From a virus, in IMG/VR virus record IMGVR_UViG_3300045988_061299: DNA of 56,878 bases; one strand, given 5' to 3'. Each line of letters opens with the position of its first letter. Position 1 is the first letter of the stretch. This document shows positions 30,991-35,493 of this stretch, in pieces. The position numbers and the translations under genes were made by a program. Under the pieces are notes generated by a model, which was given only the letters and a program-made list of their open reading frames with translations, ran no database searches and was not told the origin of the DNA.

Positions 30991-31088
30991 ATTTATTACC
31001 TGCCTTTCTGATAACTGCCTTATTAACAAAACAACAAACAGGCACTAAGGCTTGTGCTTTTCGGTCTGCATCACCTAGTTTGTTGTAA

Positions 31089-31160
31089 TCGGATAGACAG
31101 GACTTGAACCTGTGACTACTTGAATAAATCAAGCGTTACTCCCAACTGAACTACTATCCG
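31089..31160 (-). tRNA. non-canonical tRNA-like gene (72 nt); central triplet of the anticodon loop is UUA
   Basis: Acceptor CGGATAG/CTATCCG is perfect. T-arm is ACAGG-TTCAAGT-CCTGT. The anticodon arm is CTTGA-TTTAT-TCAAG, so the loop is 5 nt, or 7 nt if the closing A-U pair opens. Confidence 0.55.
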
Positions 31161-31535
31161 TTGTGCAGTTTCTTGTGTTGGAAAGTATTTATGGCACTTC
31201 ATTACGCTATCTGCCATCCTGTTCGCAAATCAACCAACACAAGCATTTTAATTATTCAGCAGGGATTACTGCAACGCCTGCTTATTCGGGAGCTACCCGA
31301 CTACTTGATGTGGTGTGGATTTGAACCACACATAAACAAGCACTCCTGTCCTTTCAAGCCCCTAGCAATCAGGTATTCCCCTGTGGTTATGCTATGGTAG
31401 ATTCGAACCACTAGCTCATTCTATCTGCTATTAGCGTTTACCCATTCCGCCACACATCAACTTACTCACACCTCTTAACCTAGGATAAGTCTGCAAACAA
31501 CATTACGCACGCAGACCTAAGAAGTGCTTTCAAAA
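31161..31535 (-). ncRNA. unassigned structured RNA block with two orphan T-arm hairpins
   Basis: A 10-bp long-range helix joins 31172..31181 and 31234..31243. T-arm-like hairpins lie at 31314..31330 and 31396..31412. No acceptor stems can be built and there is no credible ORF. Confidence 0.45.
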
Positions 31536-31618
31536 CGCCGATATCGTGAATCGAACACGAACAACATTTCTGTTGGATAGCTTAGCAAGCTGCTGGAATA
31601 CCTTTATCCCATATCGGC
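31536..31618 (-). tRNA. tRNA-Ser(GCU), type II
   Basis: Acceptor is GCCGATA/TATCGGC. The D-stem is 3 bp. Anticodon loop TTGCTAA. The long variable arm CAACA-GAAA-TGTTG is present. T-arm is TCGTG-TTCGATT-CACGA. Confidence 0.8.
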
Positions 31619-31775
31619 AAGCGGTGGTTTTTTACTTGGTTATCACCACCCAAGGATTTTTTAGTCAGCCGCAAGCGGCTCAATCCAGTTCCCTGTACTA
31701 AGTTTAACCGGTATATTGATTAGCACCTGCATTTCTCTAATAAACGCACTAGGGGTGTACTGGCAACATCGCCAA
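31619..31775 (-). ncRNA. unassigned structured spacer between tRNA-Tyr and tRNA-Ser
   Basis: A GC hairpin with a CUUG loop lies at 31667..31680. There are nested CTTGG/CCAAG and GGTGG/CCACC helices. Confidence 0.35.
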
Positions 31776-31865
31776 TGGGGAAGAGAGGAATCGAACCTCT
31801 ATTGTTTACCACTTGGGAACAGATTTACAGTCTGCCGCAACACCGCCAATCGTTGCCGCTTCTCC
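31776..31865 (-). tRNA. tRNA-Tyr(GUA), type II
   Basis: Acceptor GGAGAAG/CTTCCCC has one A-C mismatch. Anticodon arm is GCAGA-CTGTAAA-TCTGT. The variable region is long. T-arm is AGAGG-TTCGATT-CCTCT. Confidence 0.75.
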
Positions 31866-32228
31866 ATATCGTTTTAAAAGACTAGCATTGTGAAAATGTT
31901 ACGATTAAGGTGGATAGTTGATACTGAAAAACAATGCTAGTCTTAATAGCAGTATAGGCTATGACACCTATAACAGGTCGTGGCAAAGCTTGGATGTCAT
32001 TCTACCCGTGCAGTTGGGCTTAAAGAAAGTAGCTTCGCTCGCTGTCTATCCATACAGATAACTGCTGCGCTATAGGTATAACTTAATTTTATTTGCGTAT
32101 TTATAATACGCAAAACCTCACGGACTATCTGACAGTCCTTAACAGCTCTCGCTATGAGGTGAAAGGAGGACTTAATGCTAGTAAACCAATAAGTCCTGTA
32201 AAGGCACAAGTGTAATTAAACACTTGAA
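31866..32228 (-). ncRNA. unassigned 363-nt structured RNA block
   Basis: A 14-bp perfect helix joins 31878..31891 and 31931..31944. A 9-bp hairpin joins 32092..32100 and 32106..32114. There is a GGACT/AGTCC hairpin. No credible ORF. Confidence 0.45.
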
Positions 32229-32300
32229 CTACCCCTGTGGGATTTGAACCCACGATACAGGAATCAAAATCCTGTGCCTTGACCACTTGGCTAAGGGGCA
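32229..32300 (-). tRNA. tRNA-Gln(UUG)
   Basis: The U1-A72 acceptor TGCCCCT/AGGGGTA is present. Anticodon arm is CAGGA-TTTTGAT-TCCTG. T-arm is GTGGG-TTCAAAT-CCCAC. Confidence 0.85.
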
Positions 32301-32305
32301 ATATG

Positions 32306-32476
32306 CTATTCTTTTGTTTCAAAGAGTACTGCATTTTTATTTGCTGTTTCAAGCTCTGTGAAGTTATCCTTGCCTTTTACAACATTTGGATTGCCATTAC
32401 AGGCATTACAAGGCTTTTCACAATATAACTTATGTCTATGTTTGCACTGGTAACAGTGCTTATCCTGATTACCCAT
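32306..32476 (-). CDS. Cys-rich small protein (56 aa)
   Basis: Hand translation gives MGNQDKHCYQCKHRHKLYCEKPCNACNGNPNVV.... There is a TAATG overlap with the mazG stop. Confidence 0.45.
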   Translation of the reverse strand: MGNQDKHCYQCKHRHKLYCEKPCNACNGNPNVVKGKDNFTELETANKNAVLFETKE

Positions 32477-35159: not shown

Positions 35160-35414
35160 ATGATTATAGGAACATTAGAAAGCGGCGCAAAATGCGTTTA
35201 CGATATGCCAACGGAAATCGAGACGGCGGCAGAGTTCGAAGCCCTTATATATGGCTATAATAACGGCAGACTTGCAGAAAGCCAGAGAGAAGAACTATAT
35301 AACCAGCCTAAATTATTAGGTTTAAATGGTCCAATGTGGAACGGCTGGGGAACACTTGCAAGCACGGGCGAGACGGTAGCGGTCATCCGCTATGAAAAGC
35401 CTTGCAGATATTAG
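35160..35414 (+). CDS. hypothetical protein
   Basis: 84-aa ORF, first gene of the plus-strand block. Confidence 0.45.
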   Translation: MIIGTLESGAKCVYDMPTEIETAAEFEALIYGYNNGRLAESQREELYNQPKLLGLNGPMWNGWGTLASTGETVAVIRYEKPCRY

Positions 35415-35493
35415 CCGAAACGCTCCAAAATCGGAGCGTCAGCTGCGGACCGGTCGCCGTGGCTCTGATGATGGCAGACCAGAAAGGGAAAAT

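What the first reader, a model, noticed from the sequence alone, without database searches (positions are those of the whole stretch)
31161..32228. About 0.9 kb of ornate non-coding RNA-like sequence interleaved with the phage tRNA genes
The interval 31030-32305 has no credible ORF and lies on the transcribed (minus) strand between a winged-helix gene and the Cys-rich/MazG genes. I can fold only four cloverleafs (72, 83, 90 and 72 nt), which leaves blocks of 375, 157 and 363 nt unexplained.

These blocks are full of perfect helices that are unlikely by chance:
- 31878-31891 with 31931-31944 (14 bp);
- 31172-31181 with 31234-31243 (10 bp);
- 32092-32100 with 32106-32114 (9 bp);
- a GC hairpin with a CUUG loop at 31667-31680;
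- a long bulged hairpin at about 31470-31520.

Two hairpins, at 31314-31330 and 31396-31412, have canonical T-loops (GGTTCAAATCC and GGTTCGAATC). No acceptor stem can be paired for either. A D-arm-like GCGG-AATGGGTAA-ACGC with a matching 5' strand (TGATGTG) sits 150 nt upstream of the complementary 3' strand (CACATCA).

Large ornate RNAs such as ROOL and GOLLD are known to sit next to tRNAs in Firmicutes prophages. This could be one of them, a split or rearranged tRNA, or an undescribed RNA class.
Basis: partly seen in the sequence, partly recalled or inferred. Interest (0 to 1): 0.75.

Follow-up and report, generated by a model that had tools for sequence, protein, structure and literature searches.

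The report
Phage island of novel structured RNAs
Between the tRNA genes of this common gut phage lie several conserved folded RNAs that no catalogue holds, including one in the genomic slot that a related prophage fills with the mysterious ROOL RNA, and tRNA look-alikes whose anticodon arm is replaced by interchangeable inserts.

Summary

The interval is a minus-strand island of structured RNAs in a temperate phage of a Lachnospiraceae-type host. It holds three ordinary tRNAs (Gln, Tyr, Ser) and these further elements:
- **A ~360-nt multi-domain RNA (31867-32227).** It opens with a 44-nt three-way junction that covaries strongly. This junction follows tRNA-Gln in hundreds of gut viral contigs. 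In a Lachnospira intestinalis prophage and 28 contigs it sits directly before a full-length ROOL RNA. The window's RNA fills the same slot but is not ROOL.
- **A 155-nt tRNA-like "shell" (31305-31459).** Its acceptor, D and T arms are conserved and covarying. Its anticodon arm is replaced by one of at least 12 unrelated inserts.
- **A second tRNA-like gene (31089-31160).** It has a 5-nt anticodon loop and ARAGORN miscalls it a suppressor.
- **Structured spacers**, one with a pseudoknot.
- **An int-alpA RNA.**

None except the tRNAs and int-alpA matches Rfam 15. Function is unknown. The best guess is that tRNA-processing enzymes release these RNAs as stable products.

The parts
32228..32301 (-). 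Canonical tRNA-Gln(UUG). It is the first gene of the island.
   Evidence: ARAGORN; Rfam tRNA 66.3 bits. It is always first in related arrays, in many covarying sequence versions that keep UUG.
31867..32227 (-). About 360-nt multi-domain RNA (the 'ROOL-slot RNA', L-type). It comprises the trailer hairpin, the pyrimidine tract, the three-way junction, P3, the central domain and the closing helix with its U-run.
   Evidence: MFE z=-4.9. Over 14 relatives, 96.7% of cells are paired and 9 pairs are compensatory, against 28-47% in slid controls. No Rfam match.
32206..32226 (-). Hairpin directly after tRNA-Gln (CAAGUGU/ACACUUG).
   Evidence: MFE. Relatives replace it with other hairpins at the same place, such as GCAAGUA/UACUUGC and UCGGGG/CCCCGA.
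32161..32197 (-). Hairpin AGGACUUA/UAAGUCCU (32167-32197), overlapping an exposed pyrimidine tract CCUCCUUUC (32161-32169).
   Evidence: Inverted repeat I11; coordinates. The tract is conserved in the S, M and L families but is only CU-rich in the Lachnospira type.
32116..32159 (-). Three-way junction: P1 CCUCA/UGAGG, U, P1a AGC-GAGA-GCU, GUUAA, P2 GGACU-GUCAGAU-AGUCC, G.
   Evidence: Model R1 scores 68.7 bits. Over 31 distinct sequences, 99.3% of cells are paired, 9 of 13 pairs are compensatory, and covariation is 0.557 against at most 0.10 when slid. A model built without the S family finds the S-family copy as top hit in 10 of 10 loci.
32092..32114 (-). P3 hairpin (UUUGCGUAU/AUACGCAAA).
   Evidence: Exact helix. 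Three of its pairs are compensatory in relatives (helix 4).
31948..32066 (-). Central domain. A long-range helix AGCAGU/ACUGCU encloses a hairpin (32047-32060), a 14-pair interrupted helix (32032-32046 with 31972-31989) and a further hairpin (31954-31971).
   Evidence: RNAalifold and pair counts. G.U is the dominant pair at two positions, which fixes the strand.
31878..31944 (-). 14-bp closing helix with a 39-nt loop, followed by UUUU.
   Evidence: Exact. Relatives keep it as GACUAGCAC/GUGCUAGUC or ACUGGCACUUUG/CAAAGUGUCAGU followed by U6-7 (read by eye).
31775..31866 (-). tRNA-Tyr(GUA), class II, with an unusual 5-bp D stem.
   Evidence: ARAGORN. It is 81-86% identical to annotated tRNA-Tyr genes of Aeromonas phages. 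Rfam scores it 28.9 bits, just under the cut-off.
31620..31774 (-). Structured spacer B, present in only some relatives. It contains:
- hairpin 31761-31774
- stem 31720-31726/31695-31701, whose loop carries the palindrome ACCGGU (31707-31712)
- GC hairpin 31667-31680
- an H-type pseudoknot, S1 31650-31654/31635-31639 and S2 31644-31647/31623-31626
   Evidence: Indel among relatives. Over 9 sequences, 98.7% of cells are paired and 3 pairs in the stem are compensatory. One relative compensates the pseudoknot stem as GAGUG/CACUC.
31535..31619 (-). tRNA-Ser(GCU).
   Evidence: ARAGORN; Rfam 45.1 bits.
31462..31534 (-). Long bulged hairpin between tRNA-Ser and the shell RNA.
   Evidence: MFE. One compensatory change occurs in the inner stem (C-G to U-A), and there are also uncompensated changes.
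31305..31459 (-). tRNA-like 'shell' RNA. It has a 7-bp acceptor stem, a D arm with GGG, a 6-bp T stem with loop UUCAAAU and discriminator A. A 98-nt insert (type 1, itself containing a T-loop hairpin at 31396-31412) stands in place of the anticodon arm.
   Evidence: At least 12 insert types (85-201 nt) share one body. All 22 distinct 5' halves keep the D stem, in five different sequences. Default ARAGORN and Rfam do not call it.
31161..31304 (-). Spacer with three hairpins, including the 10-bp helix 31172-31181/31234-31243.
   Evidence: In 26 variants some changes are compensatory (GCAGG/CCUGC to GCAAG/CUUGC), and some mismatches are uncompensated.
31089..31160 (-). Second tRNA-like gene. It has the body of a tRNA but a 5-bp anticodon stem closed by a 5-nt loop, UUUAU. 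ARAGORN calls it tRNA-Stop(tta).
   Evidence: In relatives the same body carries UUCAU or UUUGU loops, tetraloop versions (80-83 nt) or a 139-nt insert version.
31018..31085 (-). int-alpA RNA (RF02996). It lies 3 nt after the last tRNA-like gene and just before the 375-aa gene.
   Evidence: Rfam 53.3 bits against a gathering score of 35.8. It holds the same position in every related array tested.

Best explanation
The interval is a minus-strand island of structured non-coding RNAs in a temperate siphovirus-like phage of a Lachnospiraceae-type host.

**Contents.** Three decoding tRNAs (Gln-UUG, Tyr-GUA, Ser-GCU) are interleaved with these elements:
1. A ~360-nt RNA. Its conserved 5' module is a pyrimidine tract plus a 44-nt three-way junction that trails tRNA-Gln. 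Its 3' module occupies the slot that holds ROOL in a related prophage.
2. Two tRNA-shaped RNAs that cannot decode. One has a 98-nt insert instead of an anticodon arm. The other has a 5-nt loop.
3. Structured spacers.
4. A terminal int-alpA RNA.

**Inferred mechanism.** The island is transcribed with the tRNAs as a precursor. RNase P, RNase Z or exonucleases, and the CCA-adding enzyme cut and finish every tRNA-shaped body. This releases the flanking ornate RNA and gives the inserts a stable, nuclease-resistant tRNA chassis.

**Evolution.** The central inserts and the post-junction module are interchangeable cassettes. They are swapped by recombination within the near-identical flanking tRNA-body and junction sequences.

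**What the RNAs do once released is not shown.** I think a ROOL-like role is most likely for the large RNA, and a decoy or protein-binding role in tRNA-centred phage-host conflict for the shell cargoes.
For: **Shown**
- All listed helices are exact and in excess over shuffles.
- The three-way junction has 99.3% of cells paired over 31 distinct sequences, with 9 of 13 pairs compensatory. No shuffle in 500 reached this, and slid controls score at most 0.10 against 0.557. A model built from two families finds the third family at the expected place in 10 of 10 loci.
- The junction lies 47-67 nt after tRNA-Gln in 52 of the 57 loci where an upstream tRNA is in view.
- Full-length ROOL (357.6 bits) lies immediately after the junction and before tRNA-Tyr in a Lachnospira intestinalis prophage. 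Twenty-eight viral contigs carry a 98-99.8% identical copy in the same place.
- The L-type structure is 96.7% paired, with 9 compensatory pairs and G.U as the dominant pair at three positions. This places the RNA on the tRNA strand.
- The shell body is the same in phages whose adjacent protein is 59-99% identical, and carries at least 12 unrelated inserts.
- The D stem occurs as GCG/CGC, ACG/CGU, UGC/GCA, UAC/GUA and AUG/CAU. One T-stem change is compensated.
- The shortest version is a perfect class-II cloverleaf with a 3-nt loop.
- The second body shows the same pattern.
- The array is mosaic, with breakpoints at tRNA ends.

**Inferred**
- Co-transcription.
- Processing by tRNA enzymes.
- Stability conferred by the tRNA body.
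- Function of the released RNAs.
Against: - There are no expression or processing data, so every step after 'conserved structure' is inference.
- The equivalence with ROOL is positional only; no homology was detected.
- Several alignments were fitted to the model whose pairs were then counted.
- Variation within the L-type central domain, spacer B, C1 and C3 is shallow. C3 shows uncompensated mismatches.
- The pyrimidine tract that resembles an anti-Shine-Dalgarno sequence is not conserved in the Lachnospira type.
- The shell has a 6-bp T stem (7+6 = 13 stacked pairs), which is not the standard RNase P substrate geometry.
- The terminator-like closing helix with its U-run could end transcription before the downstream tRNAs.
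Confidence: 0.62

Rival explanations
1. The shell (31305-31459) is a real tRNA gene interrupted by an intron. The intron is removed by self-splicing, or by an endonuclease plus RtcB-type ligase, to give a decoding tRNA.
For: ARAGORN in relaxed intron mode can force a tRNA-Thr(AGU) with an 81-nt intron. A closing stem flanks the insert in several types. RtcB, annotated as 'tRNA-splicing ligase', is encoded by Dulem virus 39 and at least 18 related contigs.
Against: - The forced model lacks U33 and puts the intron at 33/34.
- The 12 insert types leave no common anticodon stem-loop after removal.
- The shortest members, with no room for an intron, have a 3-nt loop (type 6), and the sister family has 5-nt loops.
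- No group I intron or other ribozyme match appears at E<=10.
- The window phage has no RtcB.
Confidence: 0.1
2. The blocks are decaying remnants and recombination scars of duplicated tRNA genes in a fast-shuffling tRNA array. They have hairpins but no function of their own.
For: - The array is highly mosaic, with modules gained and lost at tRNA boundaries.
- Block B starts with a near-copy of the 5' end of tRNA-Ser and is absent from most relatives.
- The type 1 and type 5 inserts contain T-arm-like fragments.
- C3 and C1 carry uncompensated mismatches.
Against: - Pseudogenes would not keep shell halves near-identical while a neighbouring protein drops to 59% identity.
- They would not show five compensated D-stem versions.
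- They would not keep 99.3% pairing with 9 compensatory pairs in the junction across hundreds of contigs.
- They would not conserve distinct insert families with internal covariation, as types 9/12 and 5/10 do.
Confidence: 0.1
3. The large RNA is a divergent or miniaturised member of ROOL (or GOLLD) that the Rfam models fail to recognise.
For: It holds the same slot as ROOL between the junction and tRNA-Tyr. It has the same kind of context, a phage tRNA island (PMC12286853, PMC5737381). It has a closing helix followed by a U-run, as in the ROOL locus.
Against: No ROOL or GOLLD match appears at E<=10 in a 1.7-kb search with permissive filters, nor in 27 related loci at gathering score. Neither blastn nor nhmmer finds similarity to the related prophage's ROOL. 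At about 250 nt it is less than half the ROOL model length of 574.
Confidence: 0.06
4. The signal belongs to the DNA or to the opposite strand. One version is a replication origin or protein-binding region next to the replication-initiator-like gene. The other is a plus-strand leader or riboswitch ending in the strong Shine-Dalgarno sequence GAAAGGAGG plus ATG.
For: - The 375-aa downstream protein weakly matches replication initiation O-like families.
- On the plus strand, GAAAGGAGG (32161-32169) is followed 5 nt later by ATG.
- A hairpin would sequester part of that sequence.
- Six-nt palindromes occur in spacer B.
Against: - The plus-strand ORF is 5 codons in the window. In relatives it is 3-20 codons with unrelated sequence (read).
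- G.U is the dominant pair at three positions and frequent elsewhere. These would be A.C mismatches on the plus strand.
- The tRNA-like bodies and the U-run after the closing helix make sense only on the minus strand.
- No iteron-like direct repeats are present.
Confidence: 0.06

Closest known systems
ROOL RNA (Rfam RF03087)
   Same: A large, multi-domain RNA of unknown function in phages and prophages beside tRNA islands (PMC5737381, PMC12286853). In a related Lachnospira prophage and 28 viral contigs, ROOL lies in exactly the slot the window RNA fills: after tRNA-Gln and the three-way junction, and before tRNA-Tyr.
   Different: There is no covariance-model match and no sequence similarity. 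The module is about 250 nt, against 574 model positions. Different helices are predicted. Whether it forms oligomers is unknown.
GOLLD RNA
   Same: A large ornate phage RNA near tRNAs. tRNAs are sometimes embedded in its variable region (PMC12286853).
   Different: No Rfam match at E<=10. It is far smaller than the ~800 nt of GOLLD.
Phage T4 RNA C and RNA D (species 1 and 2 stable RNAs)
   Same: Small stable RNAs encoded inside a phage tRNA cluster whose roles remain unknown (PMC3014915; annotation). T4 rnaC (139 nt) ends in a canonical T arm, CCGGGUUCGAAUCCCGG, and its ends pair. It is therefore a tRNA-cluster RNA with tRNA-like termini and a large non-tRNA middle, like the shell.
   Different: No sequence similarity was found (one search returned only tRNA matches). 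No clear D arm or 7-bp acceptor stem was seen in rnaC. No family of swappable inserts on one body is known for T4, to my knowledge.
Engineered 'tRNA scaffold' for recombinant RNA expression
   Same: The same design principle. A foreign RNA replaces the anticodon arm of a tRNA, so that the cell's tRNA enzymes process and protect the chimera. This rests on my knowledge of the Ponchon and Dardel method; PMC3753655, a later paper from that line of work, appeared in the listing and was not read.
   Different: That is a laboratory construct. Here the arrangement is natural, conserved and diversified. Processing has not been shown.
tRNA-like domains of tmRNA and bacterial Y RNA (YrlA)
   Same: tRNA mimicry (acceptor/T-arm or T/D elbow) joined to a non-tRNA module (bioRxiv 10.1101/312249 for YrlA, cited from its abstract as listed).
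   Different: ARAGORN at default settings and Rfam find no tmRNA or Y RNA. There is no G3:U70 pair and no credible tag reading frame. In YrlA the RNA ends lie in the Ro-binding stem, not the acceptor stem (from my knowledge).
int-alpA RNA (Rfam RF02996)
   Same: A true member lies at 31018-31085. The new three-way junction has the same topology: a closing stem, two hairpins, and a 5-nt G..AA joiner.
   Different: The junction model and the int-alpA model do not cross-hit. The junction sequences differ (GUUAA against GAAAA).

Membership tests
ROOL (RF03087) | Match to the Rfam covariance model at or above the gathering score (99.1 bits) | tested here: not met
   The window gives no hit at gathering score or at E<=10. 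The positive control, L283, scores 357.6 bits.
ROOL (RF03087) | Sequence similarity to a bona fide ROOL from a related phage | tested here: not met
   blastn (word size 7) and nhmmer give nothing better than E~0.1-4.
ROOL (RF03087) | Location in a phage or prophage beside tRNA genes | tested here: met
   It lies between tRNA-Gln and tRNA-Tyr in a temperate phage, the same slot as ROOL in L283.
ROOL (RF03087) | Homo-oligomeric RNA-only cage | not testable with these tools
   This needs cryo-EM or native gels.
GOLLD | Match to the Rfam covariance model | tested here: not met
   No hit at E<=10.
tRNA (RF00005), for the shell 31305-31459 | 7-bp acceptor stem, D arm with GG, T arm with a UUCRANY loop | tested here: met
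   TGATGTG/CACATCA, GCGG-AAUGGGUAA-ACGC, GUGUGG-UUCAAAU-CCACAC. The D stem covaries in five versions. The T stem is 6 bp rather than 5.
tRNA (RF00005), for the shell 31305-31459 | Anticodon arm with a 5-bp stem and 7-nt loop (U33, purine 37) | tested here: not met
   It is replaced by a 98-nt insert, and relatives carry 11 other inserts or a 3-nt loop. Default ARAGORN and the Rfam tRNA model do not call it.
tRNA (suppressor), for 31089-31160 | 7-nt anticodon loop with U33 and purine 37 | tested here: not met
   The stem CUUGA/UCAAG closes a 5-nt loop, UUUAU. The Rfam alignment deletes 2 loop positions. Relatives carry UUCAU or UUUGU loops, tetraloop forms or a 139-nt insert on the same body. 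The window's ORFs are intact under the standard code.
tRNA with group I intron | Match to the group I intron model, and the same mature anticodon arm after excision in all variants | tested here: not met
   No intron family at E<=10. The insert flanks differ between types.
tmRNA | Detected by ARAGORN or Rfam, with a tag ORF and G3:U70 | tested here: not met
   Not found at default settings. Only a low-threshold 'permuted' call appears. The third acceptor pair is A:U.
HDV-like theta ribozymes next to phage tRNAs (PMC10879173) | Nested double-pseudoknot ribozyme starting within 5 nt of a tRNA end | tested here: inconclusive
   No HDV-family Rfam hit at E<=10. I saw only simple hairpins after each tRNA. 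The published RNArobo descriptor was not available to run.
int-alpA RNA (RF02996), for 31018-31085 | Match to the Rfam model at or above 35.8 bits | tested here: met
   53.3 bits over the full-length model.

The most novel reading that the evidence does not exclude
This abundant gut-phage lineage runs a natural 'RNA cassette' system.
- **tRNA chassis.** A tRNA body, with acceptor, D and T arms kept near-identical, serves as a processing and stability chassis. At least 12 unrelated RNA modules are swapped in at the anticodon-arm position.
- **Junction leader.** A conserved three-way junction after tRNA-Gln serves as the common leader for interchangeable large RNAs, one of which is ROOL.
- **Implication.** The window's 250-nt module would then be a functional alternative to ROOL. 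The shell cargoes would be fast-evolving effectors, such as decoys or inhibitors in tRNA-targeted phage-host conflict.
Probability: 0.35. Interest if true: 0.88.

Novelty: new variant of a known kind. Interest (0 to 1): 0.78.

Why it matters
- **New handles on ROOL.** ROOL and GOLLD are among the largest bacterial and phage RNAs with no known function. This locus links ROOL to a conserved, strongly covarying leader motif behind tRNA-Gln. It also shows that other RNAs can take ROOL's place. These alternates can be compared with ROOL, and one host, Lachnospira intestinalis CLA-AA-H89B, is a cultured strain carrying the junction-plus-ROOL prophage.
- **A natural tRNA scaffold.** The tRNA-shaped shells look like a natural counterpart of the engineered tRNA scaffold, and a modern relative of the unexplained T4 RNAs C and D. 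The diversity of their inserts suggests an arms-race function.
- **Annotation pitfalls.** ARAGORN calls the 5-nt-loop tRNA-like genes suppressor, selenocysteine or leucine tRNAs, which could wrongly suggest stop-codon recoding. A GenBank relative annotates hypothetical proteins across its RNA island.

Tried and rejected
- **Rfam.** Rfam 15 at gathering score and at E<=10 on the window, and at gathering score on 27 related loci, found only tRNA, int-alpA, Hammerhead_II and RAGATH-27, plus ROOL in L283 alone.
- **GenBank phages.** blastn with the 1.3-kb region found only tRNA-sized matches. The ROOL locus of L283 found nothing.
- **Bacterial genomes.** An exact search for the shell's 3' half in 185,579 species genomes gave no match, so no host tRNA of origin was identified.
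- **Recoding.** The standard code already gives tightly packed ORFs.
- **Theta/HDV-like ribozymes after the tRNAs.** I saw none, but no descriptor was available.
- **ARAGORN relaxed, intron and tmRNA modes.** These gave forced, non-canonical models only.
- **A pseudoknot between the pyrimidine tract and the P1a loop.** It was not consistent across families (checked by eye).
- **A plus-strand small ORF behind GAAAGGAGG.** It is not conserved.
- **MAFFT alignment of the S-family junction with L and M.** It misaligned. A covariance model was used for the alignment instead.
- **int-alpA supplement.** The supplement of the paper that described the motif is not held.
- **An apparent resemblance between the window's central domain and the 3' part of ROOL.** It was not significant.
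Full report
**1. The observation**

- The three perfect helices (14, 10 and 9-10 bp), the GC hairpin with a CUUG loop, the bulged hairpin and the two T-loop hairpins were all reproduced.
- ARAGORN finds four tRNA-type genes on the minus strand: Gln 32228-32301, Tyr 31775-31866, Ser 31535-31619 and 'Stop(tta)' 31089-31160.
- Perfect stems of at least 9 bp number three, against 0.36 +/- 0.67 in 200 dinucleotide-preserving shuffles. A 14-bp stem never arose in the shuffles.
- Folding energy is far below shuffles for 31867-32227 (z = -4.9) and moderately below for 31161-31534 (z = -2.4). It is not below shuffles for 31620-31774 (z = -0.7).
- No ORF above 79 aa overlaps the interval.

**2. Setting**

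The window reads cleanly in the standard code, with genes packed on the minus strand. It encodes:
- a large terminase and an SPP1-type portal
- an integrase, an antirepressor, RecT and a DNA methylase
- a MazG protein and a 56-aa Cys-rich ORF just upstream of the island
- a 375-aa protein just downstream, with a weak match to replication-initiator O-like families

The nearest GenBank phage is Dulem virus 39, from lemur faeces, with 82% terminase identity. A prophage with 82% terminase identity lies inside a 486-kb contig of Lachnospira intestinalis CLA-AA-H89B. The host is therefore probably a member of the Lachnospiraceae. Hundreds of related contigs exist in IMG/VR, mostly from human gut samples.

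**3. The island is mosaic**

I compared the 1.3-kb region with 160 related loci. Modules are gained and lost with breakpoints at tRNA ends.
- tRNA-Gln plus about 290 nt of the trailing RNA (to 31935) forms one module. In other relatives the shared block continues through tRNA-Tyr.
- Spacer 31620-31774 is an indel.
- tRNA-Ser through the end of the tRNA-like shell forms another module.
- The last tRNA-like gene and int-alpA form the final module.

tRNA content differs widely between otherwise similar phages.

**4. The RNA behind tRNA-Gln (31867-32227)**

In 152 related loci, tRNA-Gln(UUG) is the first gene. It is followed by at least 211 nt of non-coding sequence. Three families of this trailer occur:
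- S, 211-258 nt
- M, 344-354 nt
- L, 361-451 nt (the window is L-type)

All three share the same order of 5' elements:
- a hairpin just after the tRNA
- a second hairpin
- an exposed pyrimidine tract (CCUCCUUUC at 32161-32169)
- a three-way junction at 32116-32159

The junction reads: P1 (5 bp), U, P1a hairpin, GUUAA, P2 hairpin, G, P1'.

*Evidence for the junction*
- I built a covariance model from the L and M families only (R1). It found the S-family junction as the best hit, at the expected place, in 10 of 10 S loci.
- On 11 distinct sequences from all three families, every cell pairs and 9 of 13 pairs show compensatory change.
- A pattern search then found at least 120 further viral contigs with a fourth subtype, whose joiner is GAUUAAA.
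- On 31 distinct sequences, 99.3% of cells pair and 9 of 13 pairs are compensatory. The covariation score is 0.557, against at most 0.10 when partners are slid. No shuffle in 500 reached it.
- These alignments were fitted to the model, which favours it. The slid controls and the cross-family detection argue that the signal is real.
- The junction lies 47-67 nt after tRNA-Gln in 52 of the 57 loci where an upstream tRNA is in view. In Dulem virus 39 it follows tRNA-Ser(UGA) instead.

*The rest of the L-type RNA*

Downstream of the junction the L-type RNA has:
- a variable hairpin P3 (32092-32114)
- a central domain closed by AGCAGU/ACUGCU (31948-32066)
- the 14-bp closing helix (31878-31944), followed by a U-run

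Over 14 L-type relatives, 96.7% of cells pair and 9 pairs are compensatory, against 28-47% pairing when slid. G.U is the dominant pair at three positions. On the other strand these would be A.C mismatches, so the RNA is on the tRNA strand. The closing helix persists in three different sequences in relatives (read).

**5. The link to ROOL**

No Rfam family other than tRNA and int-alpA matches the window interval, even at E<=10. The Lachnospira prophage differs. Its order is tRNA-Gln, hairpin, CU-rich tract, three-way junction (R1, 44.9 bits), and then at once a full-length ROOL RNA, followed by tRNA-Tyr. The ROOL match is 357.6 bits, E = 8e-84, covering model positions 1-574. Twenty-eight viral contigs carry a 98-99.8% identical ROOL in the same place. 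About 65 others carry a ~105-nt RNA there.

The junction is therefore a shared leader, and what follows it is exchangeable. The window's post-junction module (about 250 nt) fills the ROOL slot but is not ROOL. It gives no model match and no blastn or nhmmer similarity to the related ROOL. It is also less than half the length of ROOL.

**6. The tRNA-like shell (31305-31459)**

*Anatomy*
- TGATGTG pairs with CACATCA as a 7-bp acceptor stem.
- A D arm follows: GCGG-AAUGGGUAA-ACGC.
- The 3' part is a T arm, GUGUGG-UUCAAAU-CCACAC, then discriminator A.
- No CCA is encoded.
- The 98 nt between the D and T arms contain no anticodon arm.

*Comparison*
- Across related contigs the two halves of this body are almost invariant, but the middle comes in at least 12 unrelated types. 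Total lengths run from 85 to 201 nt.
- All 22 distinct 5' halves keep the D stem, in five sequence versions. One T-stem change is compensated.
- Minimum-energy folds of all 12 types form the acceptor stem and the T arm.
- The 85-nt type is a perfect class-II cloverleaf whose 'anticodon' stem is closed by three nucleotides.
- Insert types 9/12 and 5/10 are homologous pairs with covarying internal stems (by eye).

*What it is not*
- ARAGORN finds the element only in a relaxed intron mode. The forced tRNA-Thr lacks U33 and has the intron in the wrong place.
- The 3' half has no exact match in 185,579 bacterial and archaeal species genomes.

**7. A second tRNA-like body**

The gene that ARAGORN calls tRNA-Stop(tta) (31089-31160) has a 5-bp anticodon stem closed by a 5-nt loop. 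Relatives carry the same body (CGGATAG...CTATCCGA) with:
- loops UUUAU, UUCAU or UUUGU
- tetraloop-like versions of 80-83 nt, called tRNA-Leu
- a 139-nt version with an insert

The 139-nt version has a D arm very similar to one found in the first shell family. I do not think these are suppressors.

**8. The spacers**
- **Spacer B (31620-31774).** It is not unusually stable. In nine variants, however, it keeps a stem with three compensatory pairs (31720-31726/31695-31701) and an H-type pseudoknot just before tRNA-Ser. One relative re-pairs the second pseudoknot stem as GAGUG/CACUC. A loop hexamer stays palindromic as ACCGGU, UCCGGA or UCUAGA. That hints at loop-loop dimerisation, which is speculative.
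- **C1 (31462-31534) and C3 (31161-31304).** These are hairpin sets with some compensatory and some uncompensated changes.
- **int-alpA (31018-31085).** It closes every array tested.

**9. How it most likely works**

*Shown:* conserved, strand-specific RNA structure; tRNA-shaped bodies without anticodon loops; exchange of modules between conserved flanks; and positional equivalence with ROOL.

*Inferred:* the island is transcribed with the tRNAs. RNase P and the 3'-end enzymes cut at every tRNA-shaped body. This frees the large RNA and leaves each insert embedded in a stable tRNA chassis that receives CCA.

I favour two roles.
- A ROOL-like role for the large RNA.
- A binding or decoy role for the shell cargoes. 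Three things point that way: their diversity looks like an arms race, part of the lineage carries the RNA repair ligase RtcB, and the phages carry their own tRNAs.

None of this was tested.

**10. Comparison with known systems**
- **ROOL and GOLLD.** These are the closest in kind, being large phage RNAs beside tRNA islands (PMC5737381, PMC12286853). Membership fails the model test.
- **T4 RNAs C and D.** The shell resembles these stable RNAs from the T4 tRNA cluster, whose roles remain unknown (PMC3014915). T4 rnaC ends in a canonical T arm and its termini pair.
- **The engineered tRNA scaffold.** The resemblance here rests on my own knowledge.
- **Rejected or unresolved.** tmRNA, Y RNA and group I intron readings fail their tests. 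The theta-ribozyme reading is unresolved, because I could not run the published descriptor.

**11. Limits**
- There are no expression data.
- Several pair counts use model-fitted alignments.
- Variation inside the L-type central domain and in the spacers is shallow.
- The ROOL equivalence is positional.
- The anti-Shine-Dalgarno-like tract is not universal.
- The literature search was limited to open-access text and found no prior description. A description elsewhere cannot be excluded.

Noticed in passing
window 35413-35483 (+): A type II hammerhead ribozyme (Rfam RF02276, 49.1 bits against a gathering score of 37), about 3 kb from the island and on the opposite strand. Copies also occur in related loci L118 and L189.
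   Followed up: no
window 31018-31085 (-): An int-alpA RNA lies 3 nt after the last tRNA-like gene and closes every related array tested. Its topology (closing stem, two hairpins, 5-nt G..AA joiner) mirrors the new three-way junction at the start of the island, but the two models do not cross-hit.
   Followed up: partly
window 31089-31160 (-); L003, L041, L004 and other related loci: ARAGORN names one and the same tRNA-like body tRNA-Stop(tta), tRNA-SeC(tca), tRNA-Gln(ttg) or tRNA-Leu(caa/taa), depending on a 5-nt or tetraloop-like loop. Such calls could be mistaken for evidence of stop-codon recoding.
   Followed up: yes
L120 4599-4672: In one related contig the genuine, canonical tRNA-Gln has anticodon UUA instead of UUG. 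It would be a plausible real ochre suppressor inserting glutamine.
   Followed up: no
L281 5960-7165 (Dulem virus 39); L039 7843-9048 and at least 17 other loci: An RtcB RNA ligase gene lies between the RNA island and the terminase in one sublineage. It is absent from the window (no tblastn hit at E<=1).
   Followed up: partly
L281 3533-3616: Dulem virus 39 has a RAGATH-27 RNA (77.2 bits against 76.1) in its tRNA island. A 68-nt element with a 9-bp terminal stem and a T-loop-like GGGUUGAAUCC lies between its two tRNA-Ser genes.
   Followed up: no
window 31707-31712 (-): The loop hexamer ACCGGU stays palindromic in relatives as UCCGGA and UCUAGA (double changes each time). One intermediate, UCCAGA, is not palindromic. 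This could be a kissing-loop dimerisation site, or a DNA-level site.
   Followed up: partly
window 32161-32169 (-): The exposed tract CCUCCUUUC equals, to my knowledge, the anti-Shine-Dalgarno tail of Firmicutes 16S rRNA. Its complement on the plus strand is a perfect ribosome-binding site followed by ATG and a 5-codon ORF. The tract is only CU-rich in the Lachnospira-type relatives.
   Followed up: partly
L281 4170-4274 and neighbouring small CDSs (PP511791.1): The GenBank record of Dulem virus 39 annotates short hypothetical proteins across the non-coding RNA island, and no tRNA genes in that stretch.
   Followed up: no
window 32306-32476 (-): A 56-aa Cys-rich ORF (CxxC...CxxxCxxC) lies between MazG and the island in the window. 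In the MazG-anchored relatives the array starts at the same ~160-nt distance after MazG, so the ORF is probably conserved there, though I did not verify this. It could be a zinc-ribbon nucleic-acid-binding protein linked to the island.
   Followed up: no
window 31305-31330 (-): The shell's T stem is 6 bp, so acceptor plus T stem stack to 13 bp rather than the canonical 12. That geometry is otherwise typical of tRNA-Sec (from my knowledge).
   Followed up: no
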